Shown here: one piece after another, positions 10,401 to 53,818 of the stretch
Layout: the number at the start of each line of letters is the position of its first letter
Numbering within the stretch: position 1 is the first letter of the stretch
NCBI GenBank assembly: GCA_049472195.1
Contig: JBLIRG010000002.1
Coordinates: forward strand, 5,184 to 69,183
Direction of reading: 5' to 3'
Length of the DNA: 64,000 nucleotides
DNA from: Thermoplasmatota archaeon
GTDB lineage: Archaea > Thermoplasmatota > Penumbrarchaeia > Penumbrarchaeales > Penumbrarchaeaceae
Notes under the pieces: model-generated
Database searches by the model: none
What the model was told of the DNA's origin: nothing
What the model saw: only the letters and a program-made list of their open reading frames with translations
Translations under genes and position numbers: made by a program

Positions 10401-12188
10401 GTTGGAGATATCGAACGAAAGGACCTCCGAACTGGATGGCTGGGTCAGGAACAGATATGCCGCTCCCCGGTAATATTGGCTGGATTCGTAAGGATATCCG
10501 TAGGCGCCGACAAGTATATCGGCCACCCCGTCGTTGTTTATGTCGCCTGATCCGAAATTATCGTAGGCGTAATAGCCCAGATAATTATAGGTATAATAAC
10601 CCTGAACCGTCCAGCTCATATCGCTCCACGAATAACTGCTTCCCCATTGAGAAGCACTCATTCCATAGAACAGTCCGACTGTTCCCGCATAGTTCTGGTT
10701 CCTTCCGTTTGGTACATTATACGCACCCAGCAGTATGTCGTCAATTCCGTCACCGTCGAAATCGTCGATGTGGGATTGGCACATGTACGAACTGCTTCTG
10801 GGTCCTTTGATCTTGGCAGTGGAAATGCTGTTCAGATTGCAGTAATATCCGCCGTAGGGATATGAATTGTGAAATGTGTCCTTGTACTCCGAAACATCTG
10901 ACTTCCCCCAGATGATATTTGCCGTCCCTGTATAGGAATCGGAAGATGCCCTGTCCATGATTACAAGATCATCGAAACCGTCGCCGTTGAGATCCCCCAT
11001 GGAAGGATTGTAACCGGTATAGGCGGATGATTCGCGCTTGGTGAACATCATGTAATCTCCCTGGCGGGCCAGCATGTCATAGTGCCCTCCCCACTGCATC
11101 CATTCCGATCTCGTTCTTCCCTCGATCAGGTAGGTGGCTCCTGCGTAGGTATACCGCGAGGATGTTGTGTAGTACAGGTAGGTATAGTAACCCGCACCTA
11201 TGACAAGGTCCGTTCTTCCGTCTCCGTTGAAATCCCCGGAATCGAAGGCGTCTCCGTTTCCGTATCCCATTCTGGTGTACATGTAACCGCTGTTGCCGCA
11301 CGGGGCCCATGCTTTGATCCTGAGGTAGCCGTCACCGACGGGATCCTTGTTATTGCAGTTGATGGATCCTCCGGTGGCCTTCCATTCATTCTGGGTCCTC
11401 CCCCAGAAAACAAATGATAGTCCGGTCCAGTTGTACCTTACCCGCCAGCTGAGACCGCCCCAGTTTATATTCACGTAATACGGATATGAGTATTGCTGAC
11501 ACCAATAAGGGGCGGTTACCAGCAGATCACCTTTTCCGTCATCATCGATGTCCTCGATTCCCACATTGTAACCAAAGTAAGCATATCCTCCTCCGTACGC
11601 TCCGCGTTCACCAAGCAATTTGACATCGGGTGTCGTGTAGGATGCGCTGGTCCATTCCTCCCTTCCGAAATACAGATATGCCTCCCCGATGTAGCTGTTT
11701 GCATAATAGCTTCCGATGAGAATATCATCGATCCCGTCGCCGTCCACATCTCCCACCGCGACTGTTCCACCGGCATACCTGGAGCCGGTAGGTTTCAACG
11801 TGACATCGGCGTCCTTCTCGTCAAGGTTGGATCCGGTATTGGTCATGCCGAAGTATATCCTGACCTCTCCGCTGTAGCTCGAAGCGCCCCTGGCGCCGAC
11901 GATTATATCATTGTAACCGTCGCCGTTGACGTCCCCGATCTCGCACGCGGATCCTGTATAATCGTAATTTGTTGTGGAGGTGAACATCTGATCAGGTTCA
12001 TCCCCGTTCCACAAATTGACCGTGCCGGTCAATCGACCGTTGTCGTTGTTCAAAGCAACTTGTTCATCATTCGAAATCTCGTCCTCCTCGGAACTAACGT
12101 TCAATGTTGCCAATCCCGATATCATCAGAATGACAACGACAAGTCCCGCAAGGATGCCGGATAACGTGTAACGTAACCCTGGTTTCAA
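7434..12188 (-). CDS. Integrin-alpha-like surface receptor, paralog 1: 7 FG-GAP repeats, Ig/Fn3 stalk, TSP3-like repeats, TM, Pro-rich tail and Zn ribbon
   Basis: Seven DxDxDG blades (GDVNGDG, GDVDGDG, EDIDDDG, GDFNGDG, GDLNGDG, DDFDGDG, GDINNDG). DTDGDGLPDGEDLDDDGD repeat and TM FMVWIVVLAILILIVAVMIV. Ends with CDLCG..ECPLCG. TTG start with GGAGGTGA SD at 12193-12200. Confidence 0.88.
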   Translation of the reverse strand: MKPGLRYTLSGILAGLVVVILMISGLATLNVSSEEDEISNDEQVALNNDNGRLTGTVNLWNGDEPDQMFTSTTNYDYTGSACEIGDVNGDGYNDIIVGARGASSYSGEVRIYFGMTNTGSNLDEKDADVTLKPTGSRYAGGTVAVGDVDGDGIDDILIGSYYANSYIGEAYLYFGREEWTSASYTTPDVKLLGERGAYGGGYAYFGYNVGIEDIDDDGKGDLLVTAPYWCQQYSYPYYVNINWGGLSWRVRYNWTGLSFVFWGRTQNEWKATGGSINCNNKDPVGDGYLRIKAWAPCGNSGYMYTRMGYGNGDAFDSGDFNGDGRTDLVIGAGYYTYLYYTTSSRYTYAGATYLIEGRTRSEWMQWGGHYDMLARQGDYMMFTKRESSAYTGYNPSMGDLNGDGFDDLVIMDRASSDSYTGTANIIWGKSDVSEYKDTFHNSYPYGGYYCNLNSISTAKIKGPRSSSYMCQSHIDDFDGDGIDDILLGAYNVPNGRNQNYAGTVGLFYGMSASQWGSSYSWSDMSWTVQGYYTYNYLGYYAYDNFGSGDINNDGVADILVGAYGYPYESSQYYRGAAYLFLTQPSSSEVLSFDISNGDGEGGNILCAEAGGKGRNDTNKIGSGIYTFYTNFTNSWTVYQTSEIIIEFKLKGQLSGLSYIFGYSPQNDTYYIIDSYENGLEVVPEHSDFTTSGYHYAELNLSFRINRNFLTQDPFDVIFNIVMGRFLKTETREDMLRVEKDLTFDNIDMKVMLGDSQLERGAVLSGGEPLRITGLRAVYEETDVSPGNDKFFVRVKDNYLRVFENRSSAGLEIDIRIPTNVDSGIFRLWVEQILYPEYELHATSVSNIPGFYVSLDFDGPFAPQNLKFHADSIDDPEGRWDNDNQVWISWDPAFDTQVGVIGYKYQVRGPGSFMVTGDTEDRFTELTLGESGVYTIQIWGIDEAGNPGRRGIKSIVIDREDLTLFNHYPSYTGNIWFNSKEVELRVSISDLVVGDNSPMLDLSTLKYLVTDNMNGEPTEEMWENDGVRALYTILSLDRGENYVYTLSVPVQLSEGTENFIWWSVADEAGNRGTTKVIDVDQKVEDLYIHYRDTVNLTDNMAREKAEESRPDFEKEAISRNPANAWVDIQAPTFSDPTPDPEPQEDSRITATIIIEDQGLDLSGVDASTIQYSVSRDGISNYGGWISAGLTDDSDTILASSTELLFEPGSTNYVRWRVKDIAGNGFVVSDDFPINIVYKEVNNPPLASISAPEMHEVYDTQQKISFEGSDSIDPDLDNLQFKWVLANKTILSEEADFEVEASSLGQGVHVITLYVTDGWFTITDSISFYVKIHPSEIDTDGDGLPDGEDLDDDGDELTDQEELSLGTNPKIADTDQDGMNDYLDADPLNPLIIDDEDETGYSTYFGFMVWIVVLAILILIVAVMIVLKKRSTLEKNRVTRNVTREASMVQRYEALTGIEPELLPSVKEMGLSLPPVSAQQVVPRGRVEKEKKREKTEPEETEEPAKPVQPEPAPAPAPAPAKAPAPAGSVPGKIPKPEDLAATPNLPGNAESAGTTILCDLCGSSVEVPPGAAQVECPLCGTKKQL

Positions 12189-12940: not shown

Positions 12941-15900
12941 TCACAGGTTCTTCTTCTCACCGCAGAGCGGGCACTCTACCTGGGATACGCCCGGCAGAAC
13001 CTCAATGGAGGATCCGCAGAGGTCGCATGTGGTGGTGGAGGCTCCCGTGTCAGCTGCACCGGAAGAACCGGGAAGGTTCGGCGTCGCAGTGAGGTCCTCG
13101 GGTTTCGGTACCTGACCGGGGACTTTTCCCGCCGGGGCGGGCGCCCTCCCGGGAGCGGGTGCCGGTTTGGGTGCCGGAGCGGGTTTGGGCACTGTCGGGG
13201 ACGGCTCAGGCTCCGCGGTTTTTACAGGTTCCTCTTCCTTCTTGGGTTCCTTGATGTCATGAAGCTTCTTTGCTTTACCCCGTGGTAGGACCTGTTGAGC
13301 GGCGATCGGAGGCAGGGATACTCCCATGTCCTTTACGGAGGGAAGGAGCTCGGCTTCGATGCCGGTGAGCGCTTCATACCTCTGGACGACCTCCGATTCC
13401 CTGGCGACGGATCTCGTGATCCTATTCTTCTCGACCGTGGACCTCTTCTTGAGAACCACCATCACAGCGACCAGAAGTATCAGGATTGCCAGGACAACCA
13501 CCCAGATCATGAAGGAATAGTAGGTGGAATACCCTTCATCCTTCTCCTTCTCGAAGACCAGGGGATTGAGCGGTTCGGGATCGAGATAGTCATCAATACC
13601 GTCCTGATCCGTGTCCTTTAGTTTCGGATTGGTTCCCATGGCGAGCTCCTCGAGATCAGACAATCTGTCGTTGTCATCATCGAGATCCTCGCCATCCGGC
13701 AGGCCGTCCCCGTCGGTATCGACCTCGTCCGGATGGATCTTCACGTAAAGCGATACCGAGTCTGTGATCGTGAACCATCCGTCGGTAACATACAGGGTGA
13801 TGACATGGACGCCCTCTCCGAGCCTGGCGGCCGGTATCTCGAAATCGGCCTTCTCGCTGAGGATCGTCTTGTTCGCCAGGACCCACTTGAACTGCAGATT
13901 ATCCAGGTCCGGATCGGTGGAATCCGATCCTTCGAAGGATATGGTCTGCTTAGTGTCGAACACATCCTGCATTTCGGGTGAGGATATCACTGCTATCGGG
14001 GGATTGTTCAGCGGAATGAACTCGATTATTATCGGATAGTCGTCGGAGACAACGAATCCGTTTCCGGCAACATCCTTTGCCCTCCACCTGATATAATTGG
14101 TGGAACCGGGTTCGAACAGAAGAACCGTGGTCGAGGCAAGGACCTGATCGGCATCGTCGCTCAATCCGGCGGAGATCCAGCCTCCGTAATTGGAAATTCC
14201 GTCCCGCGATATTGAGTACTGTATCGTCGATACATCGACCCCGGAGAGATCCACTCCCTTATCCCGGATGATCACCGTTGCGGTGATCCTGTTGGTTTCC
14301 TGGGGTTCCGGGTCCGGTGTGGGATCGGAGAACATCGGGGCCTGAATATCGACCCAGGCGTTGGCAGGATTCTCACTCATCGCTTTCTTTTCCAGGGTGG
14401 CCCTGCTCTCCTCGGCCTTCTCCCTTGCCATGTTATCCGTGAGGTTCATGGTGTCCCTGTAATATACGTAGAGATCCTCGACCTCGGCATCAACGTCCAG
14501 TATCCGTGTGATCCCCTCGTTTCCGGCCTCGTCCTTCACTGACCACCAGATGTAGTTCTCCTTTCCTTCCTTCAGCTGAACCGGGGCCGATATGGTGTAT
14601 ATGTATCTCTCCCCGCGGTCGATCGACATGAGCGTATACTGAGCTTTGACCCCGTCCGCTTCCCACATCTCCTCGGTTGGTTCACCGGTCATCTGATCCG
14701 TCACGAGGTATCTCAGGGTCGAGAGGTCGAGCATCGGGCCGTTGTCACCGACCATAAGATCGCTTATCGAAGCCCTTAGGTCGACCTCCTTGGAGTTGAA
14801 CCACATATCACCCATGTATGTGGGATAGTGGTTGACGATGGAGAGATCCTCATGGTCGATCACGATGGATTTGATGGCCCTGATTCCAGGATTGTTCGCC
14901 TCGTCCATACCCCAGATCTGGATGGTGTAGACACCGCTGCCACCGAGGGTGAGTTCTGTGAATCGGTCAACGGTATCACCCGTCACGAGGAAGGAGCCGG
15001 GACCCCTGAGCTGGTATTTGTACCCGATCACATCCACCTGGGTATCGAAGGCAGGATCCCAGGAGATCCAGACCTGGTTGTCGTTATCCCATCTTCCCTC
15101 GGGATCGTCGATGGAATCGGCGTGGAACTTCAGGTTCTGGGGTGCTGACGGTCCTTCGAAATCCATGGTCACGTAGAAGCCTGGGACCGCTCCTTTTTCC
15201 TCTGCGTAAACCCCGTATTCGGGAGATATCATGATATTCACCCAGAACCGAAGGGTTCCCGAATCGACGTTGGTCGGAAGTATCATATTGATATCCATGC
15301 CCGCGGAGGAGTGGTTCTCGAAGACCCTCATGTAGTTATCGGTCACCCTGATGTAGTATTTGTCGTTGGACGGAGATACCTCCGTGTCCTCGTACACCAC
15401 CCTGAGTCCGGAGATCACCAGAGGATCTCCACCGGGTATGAAATCCCCTCTATTCACGGTTCTTCCTCCCTGTGTTACGGTCATGTCTATGTTGTTGAAA
15501 GTGATGTCCTTTTCCACCCTGAGCATTTCCTCTTCTACGTGGTAAACAACATCCCTGGACCGCACTATTCCGAACTTGACGTCGAAGGGATCCTGGGTCG
15601 GGAAGTTCCTGTTGATCCTGATCGAGATATTAATCTCCGCATCAAAATAGCCGTGTATCGTATAGTTGCATTTATCCTGTACCAGTTCTATGGCGTCGGC
15701 GAAATTATCTTTTATGTAGAAGGTATCGTTGATGGGATTGTATCCCATGCTGTAGGTTATTCCGGTCCATCCCCCTTTCAGAACGAACTCGAGAACGATC
15801 TCGTTTGCTTCCTTCACGGTCCACGAATCCGTATAATTCCCCCAGAACGTGTAGACGCCGTCGCCTATGGGATCCGCGCCTCCCACGCCGCCTGCTTCGG

Positions 15901-17671
15901 CGGTGAGGATGTTATTCTCCTCCCCGTCTCCGTCCTTCAGCTCGAATCCCTTGATCTCGAGGGCGGGAGGTTCTGTCAGGAACATGTAGACAGCACCGCA
16001 GTATGAAGTTGTCCCATAGGACCTGCCCTGTGCAGTAAGGACGATATCGGCTATGCTGTCATCGTTGAAATCCCCGCTGGACATGGACTGCAGGTAATAA
16101 TCACCAAGGTAACTGTATCGAGTCTCCCCCTGGACGGTCCAGTCGGCATCAGTCCATTTCAGATCCGATTGCCAATTGGCCTGTCCGTAGAACAGCCCAA
16201 CCCTTCCAGCATAGGTGTCGCTGTTATCATTGGGCATTCTGGACGGTGCAACGAGGAGATCTCCGTAACCGTCCCCGTCGAAGTCGTCGATCCAGTTGTG
16301 GGCCATGTAGCCACTGCTGGAGGTTCCGGAGATGGTCACATCCGTTACGTCTTTGATGTCGTTGTAATATCCGCCCGCGGGATAGCTGTCCCAGAATGTC
16401 GAGGTAAGGCTCGAGGTATCCGATCTTCCCCAAATGATGTAGCTCTGTCCCTCGTAATTTCCCGGCATCCGGTAAGAGCTGATGACGAGATCGTCATATC
16501 CGTCCCCGTTCAGATCTCCCAGTCTGGGATTGAATCCGGAGTAGGTGGAGCTCTCTCTCCTTGTGAAGAGCATGTAATCGCCGTTTCTGGCCATCATGTC
16601 GTAATGACCGCCCCACTGCATCCACTCCGATCTGGATCTTCCTGGAACTAGCCATGTCGCTCCGGTGTAGGAATACGATGAATAGGTAGAATAGTAAACA
16701 TAGCAGTAATAACCGGTCCCAAAGAGGATATCATTATAACCGTCACCGTCAAAATCACCGGAATGTGTGCTCTGGCCCCCGTAATATCCGAGTCTAGCGT
16801 ATCTGTAGGAACCGCCGGGCATCCAGCCCTTGATCCTTACGTACTGGTCCCCCGTGTAATCCTTGTTGTCGCAGTTTATGGTCCCGCCGATCGCGGTCCA
16901 TTCCGTTCTGGACCTACCCCAGAATATGAATGCTAGACCCGTGTAATTGTAATAGATATAGTTAGTGGTCCCTTTGAAATATTCGTTTCCGTTGACATAT
17001 TCATACCAGTAGGGCTCGGTTGCGATTATATCATCGTATCCGTCGTTATCCAGATCGTCCACCCAGACGTTGTCGCCGAAATACGATGAGGAGGACTGAC
17101 CGGTCTCACCGATGAATTTCAGATCGGGCGCCGTGTATGATTTTCCTTTGACCCAGTCCGTTCTTCCGTAGAACACGAAGGCTTCACCCTTGTAGCTGGA
17201 TCCGCCGTAGTTGCCCAGAGCGATATCGTCGATACCGTCGCCGTCCACGTCCCCGATGCCTATGGTGTCTCCAAGTCCGACGCCGCCGCTTGGTTTCAAG
17301 GTGACGTCGGCATCCTTGTATGACAGTGATCCTCCTGCCGTTATCATGCCGAAGTACACGTAGACCTCGTTGATCCCGTCGGCTCCCGTGACCATATCGT
17401 CGTATCCGTCCCCGTTCACGTCACCAACCGCAATTCCGGCGCCCATCCAGGCGCTTGATGTCGTGTGGTACATCATCTGGTCGGCGCTGCTCTCCCAGAG
17501 CTTCACATCTCCGGAAAGCCTGTTGGTTACGGGAAGCGGCTGTTCGTCGCCCGATCCGCCCTCGGTGACCGGTACGAACTCGATCACCGTCAGGCTGCTC
17601 AGAAGGAATAATGCCGCTATGAGAAACGGAATCATTCCCCGCTTTAAGGTTGTCTTGGATAAGCTTGTCAT
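12941..17671 (-). CDS. Integrin-alpha-like surface receptor, paralog 2 (same architecture as 7434-12188)
   Basis: Seven FG-GAP blades, a stalk colinear with paralog 1, TM FMIWVVVLAILILLVAVMVV, RYEALTGI and CDLCG..ECPLCG. ATG 17671 has a GGGGTGA SD. Confidence 0.88.
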   Translation of the reverse strand: MTSLSKTTLKRGMIPFLIAALFLLSSLTVIEFVPVTEGGSGDEQPLPVTNRLSGDVKLWESSADQMMYHTTSSAWMGAGIAVGDVNGDGYDDMVTGADGINEVYVYFGMITAGGSLSYKDADVTLKPSGGVGLGDTIGIGDVDGDGIDDIALGNYGGSSYKGEAFVFYGRTDWVKGKSYTAPDLKFIGETGQSSSSYFGDNVWVDDLDNDGYDDIIATEPYWYEYVNGNEYFKGTTNYIYYNYTGLAFIFWGRSRTEWTAIGGTINCDNKDYTGDQYVRIKGWMPGGSYRYARLGYYGGQSTHSGDFDGDGYNDILFGTGYYCYVYYSTYSSYSYTGATWLVPGRSRSEWMQWGGHYDMMARNGDYMLFTRRESSTYSGFNPRLGDLNGDGYDDLVISSYRMPGNYEGQSYIIWGRSDTSSLTSTFWDSYPAGGYYNDIKDVTDVTISGTSSSGYMAHNWIDDFDGDGYGDLLVAPSRMPNDNSDTYAGRVGLFYGQANWQSDLKWTDADWTVQGETRYSYLGDYYLQSMSSGDFNDDSIADIVLTAQGRSYGTTSYCGAVYMFLTEPPALEIKGFELKDGDGEENNILTAEAGGVGGADPIGDGVYTFWGNYTDSWTVKEANEIVLEFVLKGGWTGITYSMGYNPINDTFYIKDNFADAIELVQDKCNYTIHGYFDAEINISIRINRNFPTQDPFDVKFGIVRSRDVVYHVEEEMLRVEKDITFNNIDMTVTQGGRTVNRGDFIPGGDPLVISGLRVVYEDTEVSPSNDKYYIRVTDNYMRVFENHSSAGMDINMILPTNVDSGTLRFWVNIMISPEYGVYAEEKGAVPGFYVTMDFEGPSAPQNLKFHADSIDDPEGRWDNDNQVWISWDPAFDTQVDVIGYKYQLRGPGSFLVTGDTVDRFTELTLGGSGVYTIQIWGMDEANNPGIRAIKSIVIDHEDLSIVNHYPTYMGDMWFNSKEVDLRASISDLMVGDNGPMLDLSTLRYLVTDQMTGEPTEEMWEADGVKAQYTLMSIDRGERYIYTISAPVQLKEGKENYIWWSVKDEAGNEGITRILDVDAEVEDLYVYYRDTMNLTDNMAREKAEESRATLEKKAMSENPANAWVDIQAPMFSDPTPDPEPQETNRITATVIIRDKGVDLSGVDVSTIQYSISRDGISNYGGWISAGLSDDADQVLASTTVLLFEPGSTNYIRWRAKDVAGNGFVVSDDYPIIIEFIPLNNPPIAVISSPEMQDVFDTKQTISFEGSDSTDPDLDNLQFKWVLANKTILSEKADFEIPAARLGEGVHVITLYVTDGWFTITDSVSLYVKIHPDEVDTDGDGLPDGEDLDDDNDRLSDLEELAMGTNPKLKDTDQDGIDDYLDPEPLNPLVFEKEKDEGYSTYYSFMIWVVVLAILILLVAVMVVLKKRSTVEKNRITRSVARESEVVQRYEALTGIEAELLPSVKDMGVSLPPIAAQQVLPRGKAKKLHDIKEPKKEEEPVKTAEPEPSPTVPKPAPAPKPAPAPGRAPAPAGKVPGQVPKPEDLTATPNLPGSSGAADTGASTTTCDLCGSSIEVLPGVSQVECPLCGEKKNL

Positions 17672-17858
17672 TATGTTCACCCCTATATACTCTATGCTGC
17701 TCCATTTGAGCATCAAAATTTTACAAATACAGGCCCCATTTTATAATATATAAAAGGCACAGTTGGATTTTTTCATTTTATATAAAGTTTACATGTTTAT
17801 ATGGCTGTTGTGACCGATTTCATCCAATTTGAATGGATGAATTCATCCTCAATTTTTA

Positions 17859-42069: not shown

Positions 42070-42083
42070 CGGAGGTCGGAAAC

Positions 42084-42386: not shown

Positions 42387-42553
42387 TAAAATAAGAATAA
42401 GGGGTGGGATCCGGGTGTGTATGGTGTGTGTTTGCGTGGGGGGAGAAGCGATCCTATTCCAATAGGGTTTTGGATGAACCGGATCCCATGGATCGTTTAT
42501 CGATCGGATGTATCAATATTTCCGGGAATACGGCCTCTCCGCCATCATTTATC

Positions 42554-44054: not shown

Positions 44055-44157
44055 TTCGATCCCGGGTAAAATGACATTTATTTGGCTTGAACATTTTTAG
44101 GTTTGCATCGCAAACTATTTTATACTGCAAACGGAATCATCCCGTGAAAGTGATCAT

Positions 44158-44736: not shown

Positions 44737-44740
44737 AAGA

Positions 44741-45058: not shown

Positions 45059-45090
45059 AAGTTATCGTGGACTATTTCATTATATCGAAA

Positions 45091-45627: not shown

Positions 45628-45726
45628 AAATAAGCCACCTGTTGCAAGTTTAATTCACATAAACATATATTGGTAATAAGATATTAATGTTTCAGATAGA
45701 TCTGGGCTGAAACCTGCTGGAGGGAT

Positions 45727-46425: not shown

Positions 46426-46500
46426 ATGGATAGGGTTTCGCAGGTGAAATTATCGCTGATCTGCGTTCGATCGATTACTTAGAAGAATGTAGATAAGAAG

Positions 46501-46539
46501 GCGGAGGGATCGGTACTCCCGACCAAGGGATCCCTCCGC
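46501..46539. repeat. Perfect 11-bp inverted repeat (hairpin) in a long intergenic region
   Basis: gcggagggatc (46501-46511) and gatccctccgc (46529-46539). Confidence 0.7.
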
Positions 46540-46723
46540 GGAGCCGGGTGGGTGGAAAAAAAATGGGGAAGTTTTGAGCTTAGTGATATCGTGGTGGGGA
46601 CCACCCGTCTCATTTGAAAAATAAGAAATAGAATATAAATAAAGATTTTTCATGAATTTTCCTAGGTTATAATGATTTTGCTCGATATATATGGAAGATA
46701 ATAATTGAATGGACACTCCAATA

Positions 46724-46737
46724 GGTCACCGGTGACC
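46724..46737. promoter_or_regulatory. Perfect 14-bp palindrome, candidate operator
   Basis: GGTCACCGGTGACC sits in an AT-rich region about 300 bp upstream of paralog 3. Function is inferred. Confidence 0.35.
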
Positions 46738-47042
46738 ATCATCGGAGATTTTATTGAAATAAGAAGTCTCATAATTAGAAGGTGGATGGAGTTTTCATCC
46801 GGTTCATCGAAGATAAAACAAGTTTTCCTCAGAGATGATGTTATCCTTGTCCAGTTCAATAATTTGATGGACCCCCGGACCGAATTTTTCTTTCAAAGGA
46901 CTTTTTTAAAAAGGCGAGGTATAAATACATGGAAAAAACCATGCCAATACCCATTAATAAAGCTCGAGGACTGGAATCAAATATTGGTAATATTGTGGAT
47001 TAACCGATCAATGGACCGGTTAGCATGTCTGGGGTGTTCAAA

Positions 47043-50000
47043 ATGGCGAAATCAATGAGTTTTCAAAAGAAGGTAAAATTTGTAATGGTGCCGGTTCTGA
47101 TGGCGATCATTCTTGCCGTTCCCGCATTTCAGGCGGGATCGGGGATTGATGAGGATCCCGTTCCGACCCGGGATGATGATGAGGATAACGAGATGTTCAC
47201 CGGATCCGTTGACCTGGGCGCGATGTCCATGGAGCAGTACATCAGCGGTGAGGAGAAATACGACAACTTCGGGTATTCCATGGCCAAGGGAGATATCAAC
47301 GGCGATGATCTCGAGGATATCATTATCGGTGCTCCCGGTTTTAACGGGTCCAGGGGCGGCGTTTTCGTGTTTTACGGCGGATCCAAGGGCAGGGAGATGT
47401 CCTACGAGGATGCCGATGTCGTCATCGACCATCATGAAGATTACACCTATTTCGGCCTGAATGTCGAGGTGGGCGACGTGGACGGCGACGGGAACCTGGA
47501 CATTCTTGCCTCGGGTTACACGGACGATCAGCTCGGCCCGGGACCTCTTGTCGAGTATCCCAAGGTATTTCTGTTCCTTGGAAAGAACGGGTGGGCCCAC
47601 AACATCTCCACGGCGGAAGCCGATACGGTGTATATAGGCAGCGATCCGACAACCTTTTTCGGCTACAAGATCGGGCTCGGCGACGTCACCAGCGACGGCT
47701 ACGACGATGTGGTGGTCACCGAGATAGAGGCGGGAGCCGTTGCCGGATCGATGGGCAGCGGTATTGATTACGATACGAATATCGCCCTTGATGCCACGGC
47801 ATCACACAGCGGAGGGGGATCAGGAGTCTGGGGCCCCGATCGTCTGAACAACGGTGATTACACGGGTGTTTACAACGACTGCTGGACTTCAGGAGGCGGA
47901 TGGGTTGAATTGGTATGGGAGGACGAGGTCCAGGTCGCTGCGATGACCGTACTTTACACCAGGTACCGCACTCTCTCAGCATCCTATTGCCTGGATAGAT
48001 GTGATGTCAAATGGTGGGACGGATCCGCCTGGCAGCTGGATCACCAATACCGCACCAGTGCGGAAACCGGAGGTGTAGCCGGTACCGTCCATGACAACTA
48101 TATCAATATGACCGAACCCAGGAAGACCACCAGGGTGAGGCTGGAAAATATGAATTCCGGGTCAAACATCATGATCCAGGAGTGGCTCGTGTTCGGGGGC
48201 GGCGGATCGAAAGCATATGTTGGATCACCCAACGGCACGATGTATATATTCGAAGGCGGTCCGATCCTTCAGAGCTCATACAATGTATCTCTGGGCGCCA
48301 ATCCCGGCGGATACGATCACTTCATCAACAATACCGCCAACAACTCCGGTTTCGCAACCACGGATCTGGATCTCGGCGACATCAACGGCGACGGCTACGA
48401 GGATATCCTGATCGGCTCCGGCGGCATTCAGTACGAGGGTATCGAGTCCGGTTCGGTCCAGGTGATCCTCGGAGGAGCGAACCTTCCCAAGATGATAGAT
48501 CTGTACACCTATTCCCATCTTAACATAACGTCCTTCCCCGGATACAGGTTGTCGTATGTGACCCATGCCGACATCACCGGAGACGGGATCCAGGACCTGA
48601 TCGTTGTAGCCCCCGGCGCTTTCTTCGACAAGACTGGCGGCATATTCGCGTATAAAGGTAAGAAGGTCATGCCCACGGGCCAGATGACCATTCTCAATTA
48701 CGATTTCATGATCCGGGGCCCCCGTGAGGATTGGGAGTTCAATGTGGAGGGAGCTGGTGATCTCGACGGTGACGGTAAGGAGGATCTCTGGATCCGATCC
48801 GGCAACGGCGAGAAGACCGGCGGCGGCGGAATCTATTACCTTCTGTATATGAAGGAGGTTGCGAAGCTTCCGGATCCGACCGTGTACAATATGAAGTTCG
48901 AGACGCCTACGTTCAAGGTTGTTGCTCCCAAGGGCAAGAGCAGTTTCGGATCGTTTTTGCGCAATGGTCTCATGACCCTTGATTTCAACAACGACGATCT
49001 TGAGGAGATCGTGCTGTGTGATTACGACGGCAGTTTCCAGGGTAAACCCACCGAGTCCGGTCTTGTGTCGGTTTATTATCCCCAGGTGAGCGAGATATTG
49101 GTAGAGAAGTTCGAGCTGACCGATCCGGACGGCATCGATGAATACATTGTTGGAGCGGAGAAGGTCTATCATTTCCAGGGTTCCGTTTTGAATACCTGGT
49201 CTTACGGTGATATAAAATCGATGGACCTCAAGTTCCACATGCACGGGACCGGTTACGACGGCCAGTCTTTGGACATATCCTGGAATATGGAGATGATGAA
49301 TCTTGTGGAGCGCAATGATCTTGAGGATTTCATCAACATCGAATCCAGCAGTGTTGTTCAGACGAGCAATTACGGTTTGGATTTCTATCTTAATTTGAGT
49401 TTCAATTCCCATTATCCTCTTGAGGATGCGCTTGATGTCGGTTTGTATGTTGACAGCCACAAGGGAGATCTTTTGATGTCGAAGGTTCTTCCTGGTCTTT
49501 TCCGTGTGGAGGTTGACGTTGATTTCTTCGGTGAGCTTACGGTGAGTGCCGAGAAGAACGGCGTTCTTGCCCGCGGTTCCTATGTTCAGCCCAATGAGAA
49601 GATCGTTGTGACGGGTATTCGTGCTGTTTATGAGGGTACACTGGTGTCTCCTCCGAATACATATTTCTCGATAAAGATGGAGGACAATCTGGGCAACATC
49701 TTCCTGAATCAGAGTTCATCCGGTCTGGATATCTACTTCACGTATCGAACCCAGCCTATGGCGGGCCGGGAGGAGGTGAAGATCTCTATTGTTGATCTCA
49801 AGCAGGGTGTTGATGACATGTCTGGTCAGCCTGATTTCTATTATATTGTCGACACCGATCTTCCCCCTGCTCCGGAGGGTTTGACCGTTCATGCTGATTC
49901 TGATGTTGATCCTTTGATGGGTTACGATAACGATCCCGATGTTTGGGTGTTGTGGAATCCGACCCAGGATGCGACTTCCGAGATAATCGGTTACATGTAT

Positions 50001-51860
50001 AGTATGGAGGATGCGGGTGGTACGGATATGGGTACATTCACCCAGAATACTTTTGTTGAGGTTCATGATCTTCAGGAGGGCTGGAACACGATCTATGTCT
50101 GGAGCGTTGATTCTGCCCAGAACTACGGTCTTTCGTCCGATGTTTCCGTTTATTATGACACGGAGATGCCCATGTTCGCTTTGTCGAATCCCAAGCCTGG
50201 TTCCTGGATAAACACCAATCTGATCAATTACGAGATGTTCATCTTCGACAACGGTCAGTCTGGTGTACGCGGCAGTTCGATCGAGTATACGGTTTCCAAT
50301 GACGGCGGCAAGACGTATGGTGCCTGGGAGCCGACCAATATTCGCAGGAACGGTGATCAGATCACCGTCAAGCTGTTCATCAATTTCCGTGAGGGCGAGG
50401 ACAATTTCATCAAATGGCGTGCGATGGACGTTGCCGGGAACGGTTATGCCGTGTCTGATCCTTACCAGATCAAGGTTGATACGGTTCCGATAACTTTCCG
50501 TTCCGCCACTCCTTCCGATGCCCAGGATGTGAATTACGTGAAGCTTGGCATCACTCTTGGTGACAGCGGTTCGGGTGTTGATGCCGGTACGATTCAGTAT
50601 CAGTTGTCTCATGACGGTGTATCCAATTACGGTCCCTGGGAGTCCATGGGTCTGTCTGGTTCCTACGAGAGCATCACTGTTGAGACCCCTCCGATCTATT
50701 TTGAGAAGGACACTCAGAATTACGTGAAGTGGCGGGCCAAGGATATTGCCGGCAACGGTTTCACCTATTCGACTGATATTCTGATTGATATCAATCCCGA
50801 GGTAGTGAATGGTGATCCTGTTCCGATCATCTCGAATCCCGTGAGCGGTGATACGATATTGGAGAGTTCCAGGATCGTGTTTGATGGTTCGGAGAGCCTT
50901 GATCCCGATGGTGATGAGGTGAAGTATTTGTGGTATTCCGACAAGGATGGTTATCTTGGCACTGATCCTGTTATTGAGAGGTATCTTTCTGCCAACAGCC
51001 ATCGTATCACTCTTCATCTTGATGACGGTCTTTCGAATCGTTCCATCACGGTTGACATCAATGTTCTTCGTGATTACAATGCGATTGACACCGACAAGGA
51101 CGGCATTCCCGATTTCATTGATGATGATGACGACAATGATGGTTTGTTGGATTCTCAGGAGGATCTGAATAACAACGGTGTGTTTGATTATCTTCTCAAT
51201 GAGACGGATATGCGTAAGTGGGATACCGATGGTGATGGTGCGAGTGATTTCCATGATGCTCTTCCTCTTGATCCCGATAATTATGTGAAGGAGAATGAGG
51301 ATGAGATTCCGTGGTGGGTTCTTTTGATCATCGTTCTTGCGATCATCGTGTCCATAGTGATCATCATTCTGTTTGCGGTGTTGAAGATGCGCAGTGATCG
51401 TGAGCGTATTGAGGCTGCTCGTTCTCTTAGGCGTAAGAGGAAGTCCTTGAAGCGTTATGAGGTTCTGACGGGTATTCCGACGAATGATCTTCCTGCCATT
51501 GAGGCGATTCAGTGGGCTTTGCCAGGTGTGATCAGTGAGGCTTCGGAGTTTGTGTTGGAGCCTGCCCCCACTGATGATCTTCTTCCTCCCAAGCCTGAGG
51601 AGGAGTTTGTTCCTCCTGCTGATATGGGTGGCAAGCCTGATCTTGAGGATCTTGAGGTTCCCGCTCCTGATGTGGATGTTCCTTTTGCTGCTGATTCTGT
51701 TCATCAGGAGCCTCCATCGGAGCCTGTGTCTGGTGAGTCTGTTCCGTCTCCGTCTGGTGCCCGTGTGATCAACTGTTCTCTTTGCGGTTCTGAGGTTCCT
51801 GTTGATGACGGTGCGTCCACTGCTGAGTGTCCTCTTTGCGGTGAGATAATCAATCTTTGA
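47043..51860 (+). CDS. Integrin-alpha-like surface receptor, paralog 3: 7 FG-GAP repeats with an inserted discoidin-like domain, Ig/Fn3 stalk, PKD-like unit, TSP3-like repeats, TM, acidic Pro-rich tail and Zn ribbon
   Basis: Blades GDINGDD, GDVDGDG, GDVTSDG, GDINGDG, ADITGDG, GDLDGDG and LDFNNDD. Stalk motif HADSDVD...DND. RYEVLTGI and CSLCG..ECPLCG. GGGGTG SD before ATG 47043. Confidence 0.88.
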   Translation: MAKSMSFQKKVKFVMVPVLMAIILAVPAFQAGSGIDEDPVPTRDDDEDNEMFTGSVDLGAMSMEQYISGEEKYDNFGYSMAKGDINGDDLEDIIIGAPGFNGSRGGVFVFYGGSKGREMSYEDADVVIDHHEDYTYFGLNVEVGDVDGDGNLDILASGYTDDQLGPGPLVEYPKVFLFLGKNGWAHNISTAEADTVYIGSDPTTFFGYKIGLGDVTSDGYDDVVVTEIEAGAVAGSMGSGIDYDTNIALDATASHSGGGSGVWGPDRLNNGDYTGVYNDCWTSGGGWVELVWEDEVQVAAMTVLYTRYRTLSASYCLDRCDVKWWDGSAWQLDHQYRTSAETGGVAGTVHDNYINMTEPRKTTRVRLENMNSGSNIMIQEWLVFGGGGSKAYVGSPNGTMYIFEGGPILQSSYNVSLGANPGGYDHFINNTANNSGFATTDLDLGDINGDGYEDILIGSGGIQYEGIESGSVQVILGGANLPKMIDLYTYSHLNITSFPGYRLSYVTHADITGDGIQDLIVVAPGAFFDKTGGIFAYKGKKVMPTGQMTILNYDFMIRGPREDWEFNVEGAGDLDGDGKEDLWIRSGNGEKTGGGGIYYLLYMKEVAKLPDPTVYNMKFETPTFKVVAPKGKSSFGSFLRNGLMTLDFNNDDLEEIVLCDYDGSFQGKPTESGLVSVYYPQVSEILVEKFELTDPDGIDEYIVGAEKVYHFQGSVLNTWSYGDIKSMDLKFHMHGTGYDGQSLDISWNMEMMNLVERNDLEDFINIESSSVVQTSNYGLDFYLNLSFNSHYPLEDALDVGLYVDSHKGDLLMSKVLPGLFRVEVDVDFFGELTVSAEKNGVLARGSYVQPNEKIVVTGIRAVYEGTLVSPPNTYFSIKMEDNLGNIFLNQSSSGLDIYFTYRTQPMAGREEVKISIVDLKQGVDDMSGQPDFYYIVDTDLPPAPEGLTVHADSDVDPLMGYDNDPDVWVLWNPTQDATSEIIGYMYSMEDAGGTDMGTFTQNTFVEVHDLQEGWNTIYVWSVDSAQNYGLSSDVSVYYDTEMPMFALSNPKPGSWINTNLINYEMFIFDNGQSGVRGSSIEYTVSNDGGKTYGAWEPTNIRRNGDQITVKLFINFREGEDNFIKWRAMDVAGNGYAVSDPYQIKVDTVPITFRSATPSDAQDVNYVKLGITLGDSGSGVDAGTIQYQLSHDGVSNYGPWESMGLSGSYESITVETPPIYFEKDTQNYVKWRAKDIAGNGFTYSTDILIDINPEVVNGDPVPIISNPVSGDTILESSRIVFDGSESLDPDGDEVKYLWYSDKDGYLGTDPVIERYLSANSHRITLHLDDGLSNRSITVDINVLRDYNAIDTDKDGIPDFIDDDDDNDGLLDSQEDLNNNGVFDYLLNETDMRKWDTDGDGASDFHDALPLDPDNYVKENEDEIPWWVLLIIVLAIIVSIVIIILFAVLKMRSDRERIEAARSLRRKRKSLKRYEVLTGIPTNDLPAIEAIQWALPGVISEASEFVLEPAPTDDLLPPKPEEEFVPPADMGGKPDLEDLEVPAPDVDVPFAADSVHQEPPSEPVSGESVPSPSGARVINCSLCGSEVPVDDGASTAECPLCGEIINL

Positions 51861-51880
51861 GCGTATGCATGATGTGTTTG

Positions 51881-51918
51881 GGCGGTTCCCGTTTATCGGG
51901 AGCTGCCTTTTTTTTTTT
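51881..51918 (+). terminator. 11-bp hairpin plus U11 terminator after paralog 3
   Basis: ggcggttcccg (51881-51891) pairs with cgggagctgcc (51897-51907) using two G-U pairs; T11 at 51908-51918. Confidence 0.8.
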
Positions 51919-52024
51919 CTGTTTTTATTCAAATTGATAGGTTGATCTATTCATTTTCGTTCAGGTAATTTCGACCAGTGGTTTCATATTGGCGGAGTTG
52001 ACTTACCCCTCGGTGAAGATCAAG

Positions 52025-53818
52025 ATGCCCGGGAATGTGAAACTGCCCGATAGGAGCGATGTACCGTTGGAGCATCGATGGGATCTCTCAAACTTGTACA
52101 GTAACGATGATCTGTGGGAGAAGGATCTGAAGAAGGTTGAGGGATCCATTCCCCGGATTTTAAAATTCAGGGGAAGATTGGCCGGATCGATCGATGATCT
52201 GTCTGACTGTTTGAGATACATCGATGACCTCTCCCGGCTGATGGAGAAGGTTTACAACTATTCCCATCTCCGTCATGACGAGAATACCGCTGATACGAAT
52301 TACCAGGGTATGGACGATCGTGCAAAGAGGATGTTGGTGAATGTCGATACGGCCATGTCGTTCATGGTCCCTGAGATCCTGTCCATGAAAAAGGAGGATC
52401 TGGTCAAGCTTCTGGAGGAACCGAAACTCCGCTTTGCCTACGTTCCCCTCCGTGAGATCATCCGGAAGAAGGATCACTTTCTTTCCGAAAAGGAGGAAAG
52501 GATCATGTCAATGGCGGAGGAACCCCTGGAATCTCCGTCGAAGATCTTTCGAATGCTCAACGATGCGGATCTGAAATTTCCGAATATCACGGACAGGTCG
52601 GGAAACGAGGTGGAGATTACCCACGGCAGGTTCATCGGTTTCATGATGGACCAGGACAGAAATATCAGAGAAGATGCATTTCGCGGTTTCTATTCCAGCT
52701 ACACCGCACATAAAAACACATACTGCGCCGCTCTAGAAGGGGATTTCAAGAAGAGAGTGTTCAGATCAAGGATCAGGAATTACTCATCGTCACTCGAGGC
52801 ATCCCTTGACAGCGATGAGGTAACACCGGAGGTTTACACCGGTCTGATCGATGCGGTAAGAGAGAAACTTCCGGCCATGTACAAATATGTTCAGCTCCGG
52901 AAGAGATCGCTGGGACTGGACAGGCTTCATATGTGGGATGTATACGCTCCCCTGGTAAAGGATTTTGAAAAAGAGGTCACGTTCGACGAAGCGTCGGAAA
53001 TAGTTATCTCTGCTCTGGAACCGCTCGGGGAGGAGGTCCAGGATATCATCAAGGAAGGTCTGTCCGGGAGGTGGATAGACAGGTTCGAGAACAGGGGAAA
53101 GAGAAGCGGGGCTTACTCGTCCGGATGTTACGATTCCCCCCCTTATATCCTTATGAATTACGATAACAAGGTCAAGGACCTGTTCACCCTGGCCCATGAA
53201 ATGGGACATTCCGTCCACACATTCCTTTCGAACAGGAACCAGCCCCATATGACGGCGGACTACAGGATATTCGTAGCCGAGGTGGCATCCACCGTGAACG
53301 AGATCCTCCTCATGAATTATCTCAGAGGCAAATGGACCAGTATGGAGGAGAGGACCTTCCTCGTCAATCATCATCTGGAAGGGTTCAAGGGAACCGTGTT
53401 CAGGCAGACGATGTTTGCCGAATTCGAGAGGGATGTGAGCGTTATGGTGGAGAATGGGATACCCCTCACGCCCGATTCGCTCTGTGAACTTTACGGAAAG
53501 CTAAACGGAGATTATTTCGGACCCGATGTGGAGCTCGATGAGGAGATCAGAATGGAATGGGCCAGGATACCCCACTTTTACTATAATTTCTACGTTTACA
53601 AATATGCCACCGGTTATTCCAGCGCAACCGCCATTGCCAGGAGAATTCTCGAGGGGGGGGACCTCGAAAATTATCTGGCCATGCTCAAGGCAGGTGGTTC
53701 CAAACCTCCGCTGGAGCTGCTCAAGGGAGCCGGTGTTGATCTTGCCACACCGGAACCCGTTAGATCGGCATTGGAGGTATTCTCCGATCTCGTGGACGAG
53801 ATGGACGGCCTGATTTGA
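52025..53818 (+). CDS. pepF: Oligoendopeptidase F (M3B)
   Basis: WDLSNLY, GKRSGAYS, PYILMNY, TLAHEMGHSVH, FVAEVAS and WARIPHFYYNFYVYKYATG motifs. Confidence 0.94.
   Translation: MPGNVKLPDRSDVPLEHRWDLSNLYSNDDLWEKDLKKVEGSIPRILKFRGRLAGSIDDLSDCLRYIDDLSRLMEKVYNYSHLRHDENTADTNYQGMDDRAKRMLVNVDTAMSFMVPEILSMKKEDLVKLLEEPKLRFAYVPLREIIRKKDHFLSEKEERIMSMAEEPLESPSKIFRMLNDADLKFPNITDRSGNEVEITHGRFIGFMMDQDRNIREDAFRGFYSSYTAHKNTYCAALEGDFKKRVFRSRIRNYSSSLEASLDSDEVTPEVYTGLIDAVREKLPAMYKYVQLRKRSLGLDRLHMWDVYAPLVKDFEKEVTFDEASEIVISALEPLGEEVQDIIKEGLSGRWIDRFENRGKRSGAYSSGCYDSPPYILMNYDNKVKDLFTLAHEMGHSVHTFLSNRNQPHMTADYRIFVAEVASTVNEILLMNYLRGKWTSMEERTFLVNHHLEGFKGTVFRQTMFAEFERDVSVMVENGIPLTPDSLCELYGKLNGDYFGPDVELDEEIRMEWARIPHFYYNFYVYKYATGYSSATAIARRILEGGDLENYLAMLKAGGSKPPLELLKGAGVDLATPEPVRSALEVFSDLVDEMDGLI

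What the first reader, a model, noticed from the sequence alone, without database searches (positions are those of the whole stretch)
48800..51990. Strong T3/A-poor compositional shift in the 3' half of paralog 3 with the reading frame intact
Hand counts of T-ending codons give 4/20 (47460-47519) and 3/20 (48360-48419), against 13/20 (49380-49439), 7/20 (50400-50459), 10/20 (51060-51119) and 27/40 with one A-ending (51600-51719). The G/T skew continues into the 3' intergenic DNA and produces a spurious 738-aa antisense ORF. The equivalent region of paralog 1 is C/G-ending (seen). Possible explanations are stalk/tail replacement by recombination from a donor with different codon usage, local strand-specific mutation pressure, or an assembly chimera (inference).
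Basis: partly seen in the sequence, partly recalled or inferred. Interest (0 to 1): 0.62.

Follow-up and report, generated by a model that had tools for sequence, protein, structure and literature searches.

The report
Silent A-to-T recoding of surface gene
The last two-thirds of a giant archaeal surface-protein gene is written almost without A-ending codons and with a large excess of T-ending ones while the protein stays unchanged; related species share this, so it is a real inherited oddity of unknown cause and not an assembly error or borrowed DNA.

Summary
All six hand counts reproduce exactly. From codon 545 (window 48657), A-ending codons fall from 12% to 3% (genome 17%). From codon 758 (49296), T-ending codons rise from 22% to 46%, and to 55-60% in the last 300 codons (genome 17.5%). 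This is the strongest strand skew in the 2.8-Mb genome. Among 310 long genes only one other shows it, a 27%-identical stalk paralog on contig C47.

The recoding is purely silent, with no amino-acid shift. Independently assembled orthologs at 51-57% identity share it, as does the C47 ortholog of another genus. The 5' and 3' halves have the same nearest relative.

The codon set is not that of highly expressed genes, mRNA folding is unchanged, and the 738-aa antisense ORF is a by-product of losing TTA/CTA/TCA.

I favour, at moderate confidence, a selection-like force on silent sites of the transcript: avoid A, and prefer U except before A. A DNA-level strand-asymmetric mutation or repair process is the main rival. 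The closest published phenomenon, GRINS, fails its membership test.

The parts
47025..51860 (+). Gene for the 1611-aa FG-GAP propeller-on-stalk surface protein ('paralog 3'): signal peptide, propeller with an inserted domain, stalk, one TM helix, and a cytoplasmic tail ending in a Zn ribbon
   Evidence: Translation. Pfam FG-GAP 5e-22. Full-length orthologs in relatives.
47025..48656 (+). 5' part (codons 1-544) with near-normal silent-site usage: A3 0.12, T3 about 0.21, C3 about 0.41
48657..51860 (+). A3-depleted tract (codons 545-1611): A-ending codons 3.0%. ATA is the best-surviving A-ending codon.
   Evidence: Change point LLR 25. Codon table. ATA retention P = 0.0095.
49296..51860 (+). T3-enriched tract (codons 758-1611): T3 0.46. 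GGT, CGT, CTT and GTT dominate. AGR is replaced by CGT, and TTG rises.
   Evidence: Change point LLR 50. Codon table.
50943..51860 (+). Extreme 3' end (codons 1307-1611, TM plus cytoplasmic tail): T3 0.55-0.60, A3 0.00-0.02. C3 falls to 0.12 after codon 1370. TA skew 0.27.
   Evidence: Sequence read.
51861..51988 (+). Intergenic spacer, G+T 0.68. It holds a G+C-rich hairpin plus T11 terminator at about 51881-51919 and the promoter region of the next gene.
51989..52588 (+). First 200 codons of the downstream oligoendopeptidase F (M3) gene: mild spill-over of the skew (G3+T3 0.63, A3 0.11), normal afterwards
   Evidence: Pfam Peptidase_M3 2e-75. (top 0.18% of windows).
49716..51932 (-). 738-aa antisense ORF. 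It is a by-product: it lies in the codon-aligned antisense frame, which is open because sense TTA, CTA and TCA are absent.
   Evidence: No Pfam hit. Basic low-complexity translation. Codon counts.
48276..49460 (-). 394-aa antisense ORF in the same frame. A single stop separates it from the 738-aa ORF. Same by-product.
12941..17716 (-). Paralog 1 (control): same architecture, flat normal usage (A3 0.08-0.22, T3 0.08-0.26), TA skew -0.15
7434..12188 (-). Paralog 2 (control): flat normal usage

Best explanation
The tract is a genuine, inherited, purely synonymous recoding of the coding strand of this gene.

What it consists of:
- From about codon 545, A is removed from every silent position. This covers third positions and also the first position of Arg (AGR to CGT).
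- T mostly replaces it. This includes CTN to TTG in Leu.
- GC3 is roughly kept until the last 300 codons.

Where else it occurs:
- The orthologs of this gene in other species.
- One distantly related stalk paralog (C47) and that paralog's ortholog in another genus.

Proposed cause: a selection-like directional force on silent sites of the transcript keeps it in place. The rule is to avoid A, and to prefer U unless the next base is A. Neither donor codon usage nor raw mutation pressure fits as well.

Inferred, not shown: the property under selection belongs to the mRNA or its decoding. Candidates are lower susceptibility to A-preferring RNA decay or cleavage, or independence from the U34 tRNAs that read NNA codons. 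ATA is read by a different tRNA and is the A-ending codon that survives best.

The antisense ORFs are a passive consequence.
For: Real and extreme:
-.

Gene-specific:
- Only 2 of 310 genes of at least 700 aa show it, and only 2 of 17 stalk-family genes.

Inherited or maintained:
- G020 (two copies), G013, and ENA contigs L031 and L032 have A3 0.02-0.14 and T3 0.30-0.58. Their own flanking genes have A3 0.22-0.25 and T3 0.20-0.28.
- The C47 ortholog in G001 (45% identical) has the same limits, about codon 440 to the TM helix. G011 and G005 show a milder A3 loss in the 3' half starting at other codons, and in G011 there is no T3 gain.

Silent only:
- Position 1 and 2 composition equals that of unbiased orthologs: A1 0.28 against 0.27-0.31, and A2 0.35 against 0.30-0.35.
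- G+T-rich-codon amino acids (G, V, C, W, F) are 0.225 against 0.225-0.243. A+C-rich-codon ones (P, T, H, Q, N, K) are 0.236 against 0.213-0.247.
- Replacement changes in the tract show A>G 10 against G>A 20. A mutation bias strong enough for the silent sites predicts about 88% A>G, P = 3e-12.

Family switches that need two changes:
- CGT 0.52-0.71 against the genome's 0.04. AGR falls from 0.70 to 0.17.

Context epistasis:
- T/(T+C) is 0.29 before A, but 0.65-0.78 before C, G or T. The genome values are 0.23 and 0.30-0.47.
- A context-free mutational or conversion shift predicts 0.54 before A, P = 2e-10.

No hypermutation:
- Between G013 and a close relative, the 3' end of the gene is 96-98% identical, like the flanks at 98%.

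ATA is less depleted than other NNA codons, P = 0.0095.
Against: - No selective agent is identified, and no expression or RNA data could be obtained.
- In the last 300 codons the direction (loss of A and C, gain of G/T) is what deamination of an exposed coding strand would give.
- The skew runs past a strong terminator into the spacer and the first 200 codons of the next gene. That fits a DNA-level regional process better than selection on one mRNA.
- The limits (codon 544 inside the propeller; codons 758, 1307 and 1370) do not match domain junctions. C47's cytoplasmic tail is spared while this gene's tail is the most extreme part.
- Distribution among orthologs is patchy. An episodic process would also give that.
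- mRNA folding energy is no different from a version recoded with genome usage.
- RelE/ParE toxins are in nearly all relatives and HigB-like toxins in none, so no comparative support for a toxin-escape reading.
- ATA retention is also what an A>G mutation bias predicts.
Confidence: 0.45

Rival explanations
1. A DNA-level, strand-asymmetric mutation, repair or gene-conversion process is tied to this locus. Possible sources are transcription or R-loop exposure of the coding strand, or polar recombination initiated near the 3' end. It writes G/T, and above all T in place of A, into the coding strand. The gradient decays away from the gene's 3' end. This would be a single-copy relative of GRINS, and of the local G+T tracts other agents of this scan reported in archaea.
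For: - A gradient that peaks at the 3' end, continues through the spacer, and reaches 600 nt into the next gene.
- Limits unrelated to domains.
- Patchy, variable intensity among orthologs, as if at different stages.
- The gene family is a recombination hot spot. The G013/L032 divergence is mosaic, 79-98% inside the gene against 98% in the flanks. G020 has 97.5%-identical tandem copies. The 5' and 3' trees are incongruent for genus g4.
- In the last 300 codons both A and C are lost.
- ATA is spared, where A>G would change the amino acid.
- Published link between intense skews and gene conversion (PMC8256042).
Against: - No shift at codon positions 1 and 2 or in amino-acid composition, despite about 50% protein divergence. 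GRINS do shift composition.
- Replacement changes are not biased away from A.
- The T gain vanishes before A, which a context-free process does not predict.
- Over most of the tract the change is A3 to T3 with G3 and C3 almost unchanged. In C47 the GC skew is 0.008. That is not the deamination pattern.
- AGR to CGT needs an A>C step.
- Highly transcribed genes (EF-1alpha, EF-2, thermosome, RNA polymerase) lack the skew.
- The first 544 codons of the same transcription unit are normal.
- No excess divergence at the 3' end between close relatives.
Confidence: 0.33
2. The stalk and tail were replaced by recombination with a donor gene that has different codon usage.
For: - Heads and inserted domains are demonstrably exchanged in this family. 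Genus g4 genes sit in different places in the 5' and 3' trees. The insert at aa 240-402 is 67% identical to one G020 copy and 33% to the other.
- The upstream 42-47 kb is a low-GC variable region.
Against: - Both halves of this gene have the same sister (L031), and identity to all 16 orthologs is even.
- No relative above 57% identity exists in the searched collection.
- Four separate change points, not one junction.
- Orthologs and an unrelated paralog show the same bias.
- In this genome none of 1411 ORFs or 5480 windows outside the two genes combines A3 of 1-3% with T3 of 45-60%. From general knowledge I know of no genome with such a usage that could serve as donor.
Confidence: 0.05
3. Assembly chimera joining two organisms' orthologs inside the gene.
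Against: - The change is gradual and multi-step.
- The reading frame is intact and collinear with full-length orthologs.
- Downstream genes have normal genome usage.
- A similar A3-poor, T3-rich trend occurs in five independent assemblies and in a second gene on another contig.
Confidence: 0.02
4. Ordinary codon adaptation of a very highly expressed gene, or a real protein-coding gene on the antisense strand constraining the sense third positions.
For: - The bias is strong and gene-specific.
- A 738-aa antisense frame is open.
Against: - EF-1alpha, EF-2 and the thermosome prefer GGA, AGG, CTC, GTC, GAC and AAC, with T3 0.09-0.15. For C/T choices this is the opposite set.
- The antisense product is basic, low-complexity, lacks nearly all T-initial codons and has no Pfam match. 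All NNA codons are avoided, not only the three that would be antisense stops.
Confidence: 0.03

Closest known systems
[quoted passage not shown] 2021, PNAS; PMC8256042)
   Same: - Kilobase-scale intragenic tracts inside large modular protein genes.
- G>C and T>A on one strand, strongest at third codon positions.
- The encoded protein stays functional.
- Found in genes that undergo gene conversion or recombination.
- The authors also mention single-copy skewed regions.
   Different: - Here there is a single copy.
- TA skew dominates (0.18-0.27), GC skew is below their 0.15 threshold or absent (C47: 0.008), and the two skews are uncorrelated (r about 0, against 0.70).
- No amino-acid shift, whereas GRINS enrich Gly, Val, Cys and Trp.
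- Only one polarity is seen.
- This is an archaeon; the paper does not mention archaea.
Transcription-associated strand asymmetry (coding-strand C>T excess in enterobacteria; T>A and G>C skews of mammalian transcripts). Cited from general knowledge.
   Same: - The excess of T over A and G over C is on the coding strand.
- It is confined roughly to a transcribed region.
   Different: - The amplitude is far larger: (T3-A3)/(T3+A3) reaches 0.96.
- It starts 1.6 kb inside the transcription unit.
- It is absent from the highly expressed genes tested.
- It is absent from replacement sites.
Replication-strand codon usage of Borrelia and other bacteria (G3/T3-rich leading-strand genes). Cited from general knowledge.
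   Same: G/T-ending codon dialect caused by strand asymmetry.
   Different: - There it is genome-wide by replication strand and shifts amino-acid usage.
- Here it covers one 3-kb tract plus one other gene in 2.8 Mb, with no amino-acid shift.
Local G+T/A+C strand tracts reported by other agents of this scan in Staphylothermus, a DPANN archaeon, a nanohaloarchaeon, a hot-spring archaeon and an Asgard atpB. These are unchecked notes.
   Same: - Kilobase tracts in archaeal chromosomes where neutral sites of one strand lose A and C.
- Held at the same locus among relatives.
- Cause unknown.
   Different: - Several of those are described as orientation-independent and as running across several genes.
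- This one lies within one gene (plus a short spill-over), so orientation independence could not be tested.
- It is mainly an A-to-T swap.

Membership tests
GRINS (PMC8256042) | Region >500 bp with >80% DNA identity to another region of the same cluster or genome | tested here: not met
   blastn of window 48657-51860 against the whole genome returns only itself. G020's tandem copies are 97.5% identical over 3.66 kb, but that is another genome.
GRINS (PMC8256042) | Mean absolute GC skew and TA skew both >0.15 (150-nt windows, step 30) | tested here: not met
   Codons 545-1611: |GC| 0.139, |TA| 0.175. Codons 758-1611: 0.135 and 0.199. Only the last 305 codons pass both (0.168 and 0.268). C47 tract: 0.087 and 0.179. 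G020 copies: 0.09 and 0.17.
GRINS (PMC8256042) | GC and TA skews strongly correlated between windows (r about 0.70) | tested here: not met
   r = -0.04, 0.02 and -0.39 for the P3 tract and its sub-tracts, 0.02 for C47, 0.04-0.08 for G020
GRINS (PMC8256042) | Skew strongest at third codon positions, with a noticeable shift of amino-acid composition (Gly, Val, Cys, Trp up; Pro, Thr, His, Gln down) | tested here: not met
   The third-position part is met. The amino-acid shift is absent: GVCWF 0.225 against 0.225-0.243 in unbiased orthologs, and PTHQNK 0.236 against 0.213-0.247.
Recombinant or horizontally replaced segment | The two parts of the gene have different nearest relatives | tested here: not met
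   Segment-wise identities are even. In separate ML trees the sister of both halves is L031: 94/100 for the clade in the 5' tree, 91/81 in the 3' tree.
Recombinant or horizontally replaced segment | A plausible donor with that codon usage exists | tested here: not met
   Best relative is 57% identical. The biased relatives differ from their own genomic flanks too.
Transcription-associated mutational asymmetry | The same directional bias at replacement sites, and a shift in amino-acid composition | tested here: not met
Transcription-associated mutational asymmetry | Scales with expression and covers the transcription unit | tested here: not met
   EF-1alpha, EF-2, thermosome and RpoA/B have T3 0.09-0.16 and A3 0.13-0.16. 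The first 544 codons are normal. Expression of the gene itself is not testable here.
Translational-selection codon bias | Preferred codons are those of highly expressed genes | tested here: not met
   GGT 0.70 against 0.16, CGT 0.52 against 0.05, CTT 0.51 against 0.23, GAT 0.74 against 0.43 in EF-1alpha + EF-2 + thermosome
Overlapping antisense protein gene | The antisense product has relatives or domains and a protein-like composition | tested here: not met
   No Pfam match at E <= 0.01. The translation is Arg/Ile/Asn/Thr-rich and has almost no Phe, Tyr, Trp or Cys.
Escape from an A-site, A-specific mRNA interferase (HigB-like) | Such a toxin is present in the genomes that show the bias and absent from those that do not | tested here: not met
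   PF05015 is in 0 of 27 relatives. PF05016 (RelE/ParE) is in 24 of 27, regardless of bias.

The most novel reading that the evidence does not exclude
Particular archaeal surface-protein genes are held, over the time that separates genera, in a private silent-site dialect: no NNA codons, and U in their place except before A. A force that acts like selection keeps them there, but it is not ordinary codon adaptation. Two readings fit. One is gene-specific insulation of a long mRNA from A-dependent decay or from U34-tRNA decoding. The other is an undescribed strand-polar, wobble-tolerant gene-conversion bias. Together with the other archaeal G+T tracts seen in this scan, this would define a new class of local compositional tract.
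Probability: 0.3. Interest if true: 0.75.

Novelty: new variant of a known kind. Interest (0 to 1): 0.56.

Why it matters
Silent sites are usually taken to reflect genome-wide mutation bias plus expression-linked codon adaptation. Here a 3-kb piece of one gene has A3 of 1-3% and T3 up to 60% in a genome where both are 17%. The protein composition does not change, and relatives share the pattern.

- If selection keeps it, some property of long archaeal mRNAs (decay, premature termination, or decoding of NNA codons) imposes strong gene-specific constraints that are so far undescribed.
- If a DNA process writes it, it is an archaeal counterpart of GRINS with different rules.

There is also a practical point. 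Tracts like this create long spurious antisense ORFs and atypical-composition signals. Gene callers, horizontal-transfer detectors and metagenome-bin chimera checks will misread them.

Tried and rejected
- **High-expression codon cluster.** A PCA of RSCU produced a distinct cluster that I first took for highly expressed genes. Its 'proteins' are nonsense shadow ORFs of my simple ORF caller. I replaced it with EF-1alpha, EF-2, thermosome and RpoA/B found by motif.
- **mRNA structure.** Mean MFE per 150 nt of the tract is -41.8, against -41.2 +/- 0.7 for the same protein recoded with genome usage. No effect.
- **Hidden-stop ('ambush') selection.** Off-frame stops in the +2 frame are fewer than in own-codon shuffles, not more: 89 against 109 +/- 5.4, and in C47 35 against 57 +/- 4.6.
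- **T-run (terminator) avoidance.** Not significant.
- **Synteny with relatives.** No shared neighbours in the flanks I fetched.
- **Polarised silent changes between close pairs** (G020a/b, G013/L032). Dominated by recombinant segments and by parsimony bias in a skewed composition, so uninformative.
- **tRNA inventory by ARAGORN.** Incomplete, 24 or 14 genes in an 86%-complete bin, so unusable.
- **Toxin profile.** HigB-like toxins are absent everywhere and RelE/ParE are present nearly everywhere, so no correlation with the bias.
- **Earlier findings on look-alike stretches.** None.
- **First literature search.** Gave nothing specific.
Full report
**What is there**

The window is C24:5184-69183 of a 2.79-Mb, 111-contig bin. 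Earlier notes and database names place it in an uncultured sediment Thermoplasmatota archaeon. Window 47025-51860 (+) encodes a 1611-aa surface protein. It has a signal peptide, an FG-GAP propeller with an inserted domain, a long stalk, one TM helix and a cytoplasmic tail ending in CxxC...CPxC. Two paralogs of the same layout lie at 12941-17716 and 7434-12188 on the minus strand.

**Check of the observation**

In 100-codon steps, the A3/T3 counts per 100 codons run from 13/23, 5/26, 15/20, 15/17, 14/19 at the 5' end to 3/39, 0/55, 1/49, 2/58 at the 3' end.

Likelihood change points:
- A3 at codon 544 (0.123 to 0.030).
- T3 at codon 758 (0.222 to 0.457), and again at codon 1307 (to 0.549).
- C3 at codon 1370 (0.341 to 0.124).

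So the shift is stepwise. It begins a little upstream of the stated 48800, and A-loss is its sharpest component. Paralogs 1 and 2 are flat.

**Against the genome**

- 1411 ORFs of at least 200 aa have A3 0.169 +/- 0.033 and T3 0.175 +/- 0.048. This gene has the lowest A3 of all.
- Of 5480 200-codon windows outside this gene and one other, none has A3 <= 0.05 (minimum 0.055). Twelve of the 24 windows inside the two genes do.
- In 900-nt windows of raw DNA, the tract is the genome's top G+T outlier, z = 5.6.
- Among 310 genes of at least 700 aa there is no general 3' gradient. Only this gene (3' half A3 0.02, T3 0.45) and C47(-)23182-26395 (0.04, 0.37) stand out. The next lowest A3 is 0.07.

**The second gene**

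C47 encodes a 1071-aa surface protein with a different head on the same kind of stalk. It is 27% identical to aa 626-1477 of this protein. Its tract runs from codon 424 to about 1029 and stops at the end of the TM helix. The last 40 codons (cytoplasmic tail) are normal again. At 27% identity the two tracts cannot be a recently shared cassette.

**What the recoding consists of**

In codons 601-1611 the usage is as follows, with genome values in brackets:
- GGT 0.70 (0.17), CGT 0.52 (0.04), CTT 0.51 (0.20), GTT 0.55 (0.22).
- AGR falls from 0.70 to 0.17.
- GAG 0.97, AAG 0.92, CAG 1.00.
- GGG 0.03 (0.25), TTG 0.27 (0.10).
- C47 shows the same set.

Three points matter:
- A is also avoided, and T gained, at synonymous first positions (AGR to CGN, CTN to TTG).
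- Over most of the tract G3 and C3 hardly move, so the core is an A3-to-T3 swap. C47 has TA skew 0.18 and GC skew 0.008. Only the last 300 codons of this gene also lose C3.
- ATA is the best-surviving A-ending codon: 10 observed against 4.1 expected under uniform depletion, P = 0.0095.

**Antisense ORFs**

The 738-aa and 394-aa antisense ORFs lie in the codon-aligned antisense frame. Stops in that frame correspond to sense TTA, CTA and TCA. One stop interrupts 1219 codons. The translation is basic and low-complexity, with no Pfam match.

**Not a chimera and not a donor segment**

Full-length orthologs at 51-57% identity show the same kind of bias against their own backgrounds:

| Ortholog | Gene A3 | Gene T3 | Flanking A3 | Flanking T3 |
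|---|---|---|---|---|
| G020 (two tandem copies) | about 0.10 | about 0.43 | 0.246 | 0.278 |
| G013 | 0.13 | 0.33 | 0.225 | 0.219 |
| ENA contig L032 | 0.02-0.30 | 0.27-0.49 | 0.22 | 0.20 |
| ENA contig L031 (nearest relative, 57%) | mostly about 0.10 from codon 400 | up to 0.58 | not measured | not measured |

- One long-type ortholog (L034) and the ten shorter-type orthologs are not biased.
- For C47, the G001 ortholog (45% identical) has the same limits. G011 loses A3 without gaining T3, and G005 is intermediate.
- At these distances silent sites are saturated. The bias must therefore be kept or re-made in each lineage. It cannot be a single imported segment.
- Identity of this protein to 16 orthologs is even along its length. 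In separate ML trees both halves have L031 as sister.
- The best relative among 5.8 billion proteins is 57% identical.
- A chimera would also have to recur in five independent assemblies and on a second contig.

**Not the high-expression dialect**

EF-1alpha, EF-2, thermosome and RpoA/B have T3 0.09-0.16 and A3 0.13-0.16. The first three prefer GGA, AGG, CTC, GTC, GAC and AAC. For every C/T choice the tract prefers the codon these genes avoid.

**Mutation or selection?**

Evidence against simple mutation pressure:
- Over 687 columns shared with orthologs, positions 1 and 2 are unchanged: A1 0.28 against 0.27-0.31, A2 0.35 against 0.30-0.35, T1 0.20, T2 0.30.
- Over 1001 columns, amino acids with G/T-rich codons (0.225) and with A/C-rich codons (0.236) sit inside the range of unbiased orthologs.
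- Amino-acid-changing single-base differences from a 70% consensus give A>G 10 against G>A 20, and A-loss 22 against A-gain 34. Controls give 80:96. A bias large enough to explain the silent sites predicts about 88% A>G (P = 3e-12).
- The T gain depends on context. T/(T+C) is 0.29 when the next base is A, but 0.65-0.78 otherwise. Genome values are 0.23 and 0.30-0.47. A context-free shift predicts 0.54 before A (P = 2e-10).
- Between G013 and a close relative, the flanks are 98% identical and the gene's 3' end 96-98%. There is no ongoing hypermutation there.

Evidence in favour of a DNA-level process:
- The skew peaks at the 3' end.
- It continues through the spacer, where G+T is 0.68, or 0.66 without the hairpin and T11 terminator.
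- It continues into the first 200 codons of the next gene, where G3+T3 is 0.63, in the top 0.18% of windows.
- The limits do not coincide with domain junctions.
- The distribution among orthologs is patchy.
- The last 300 codons lose both amino bases.
- ATA, where A>G is not silent, is spared.

**Recombination in the family**

- The G013/L032 comparison is a mosaic, 79-98% identical within the gene.
- G020's tandem copies are 97.5% identical over 3.66 kb.
- Genus g4 long-type genes group by head in the 5' tree (94/100) and by genus in the 3' tree (100/99). This agrees with earlier notes on swappable heads.

This makes a recombination-linked bias conceivable, but it does not explain why replacement sites are untouched.

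**Other tests**

- mRNA folding is unchanged.
- Hidden stops are depleted, not enriched.
- T-runs are not significantly avoided.
- HigB-like toxins are absent, and RelE/ParE toxins are ubiquitous.

**Comparison with what is known**

The closest published phenomenon is GRINS (PMC8256042). These are duplicated regions longer than 500 bp with |GC| and |TA| skews above 0.15. The two skews are correlated (r = 0.70), the effect is strongest at third positions, and amino-acid composition shifts.

This tract differs on most points:
- It is single-copy.
- It has |GC| 0.135-0.139, |TA| 0.175-0.20 and r about 0.
- It shows no amino-acid shift.

It therefore resembles GRINS but is not a member.

Other agents of this scan have reported kilobase G+T tracts in several archaea. 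I did not test those notes. This case differs in lying essentially within one gene and in being mainly an A-to-T swap.

**Verdict**

- The chimera and donor readings are rejected on comparative grounds.
- The best-supported reading (0.45) is a selection-like force on silent sites of the transcript. Candidate agents, inferred only, are A-preferring RNA decay machinery (the archaeal exosome cap prefers A-rich RNA: PMC3672285, PMC4227792, PMC7667871, seen) or independence from U34 tRNAs.
- A DNA-level strand-asymmetric process is the main rival (0.33).
- Population read data and RNA data would decide between them.

Noticed in passing
G000 contig C47:23182-26395 (-), outside the window: Second gene of the genome with the same A3-poor, T3-rich tract (codons 424-1029). 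It encodes a 1071-aa stalk-family surface protein with a different head. The tract stops at the TM helix and spares the cytoplasmic tail. The ortholog in G001 (L029) has the same limits.
   Followed up: yes
window 51989-52588: The first 200 codons of the downstream M3 oligoendopeptidase gene have G3+T3 0.63 and A3 0.11, in the top 0.18% of 200-codon windows. Usage is normal afterwards. The skew appears to cross the terminator.
   Followed up: partly
L032 (ENA contig) vs G013:C15 (L003+L017): Two close relatives are 98% identical over 7.4 kb of flanking genes. Inside the surface-protein gene and the ABC-transporter genes upstream they are only 79-92% identical in blocks. This looks like mosaic allelic recombination.
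   Followed up: partly
L013 (G020:C9:224958-237500): Two tandem copies of the ortholog are 97.5% identical over 3.66 kb. Their inserted domains (aa 240-402) differ: 67% against 33% identity to this window's insert. The second copy appears split into two frames.
   Followed up: partly
trees (loci L002-L034): Genus g4 long-type genes group with G000/L031 in the 5' (propeller) tree, but with their genus-mates in the 3' (stalk) tree. This gives independent support for head exchange in the family.
   Followed up: partly
G000 contig C58:34-352 (+): A partial ORF at a contig start encodes a TM helix plus a basic tail, with A3 0.05 and T3 0.41. It may be the 3' end of a third gene of this kind, cut by the assembly.
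   Followed up: no
whole genome G000: My simple ORF caller finds 310 ORFs of at least 700 aa in 2.79 Mb, many above 1500 aa. That is an unusually large share of giant, mostly surface-type proteins.
   Followed up: no
window 42000-47000: Low-GC stretch (0.44-0.49) just upstream of the gene. Judged from the translations alone, its small ORFs look like a thioredoxin-like protein, a molybdopterin-type oxidoreductase domain, membrane proteins, ArsR/PadR- and Lrp-like regulators and a pentapeptide-repeat protein. It is possibly a variable island.
   Followed up: no
G000 and 26 relatives: RelE/ParE-family toxin genes (PF05016) are in 24 of 27 genomes, with 6 copies in G000. HigB-like toxins (PF05015) are in none.
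   Followed up: yes
whole genome G000: Strong genome-wide avoidance of T before A across codon boundaries: T/(T+C) is 0.23 when the next base is A, against 0.45-0.47 before C or T. At fourfold sites T3 before A is only 0.07.
   Followed up: partly
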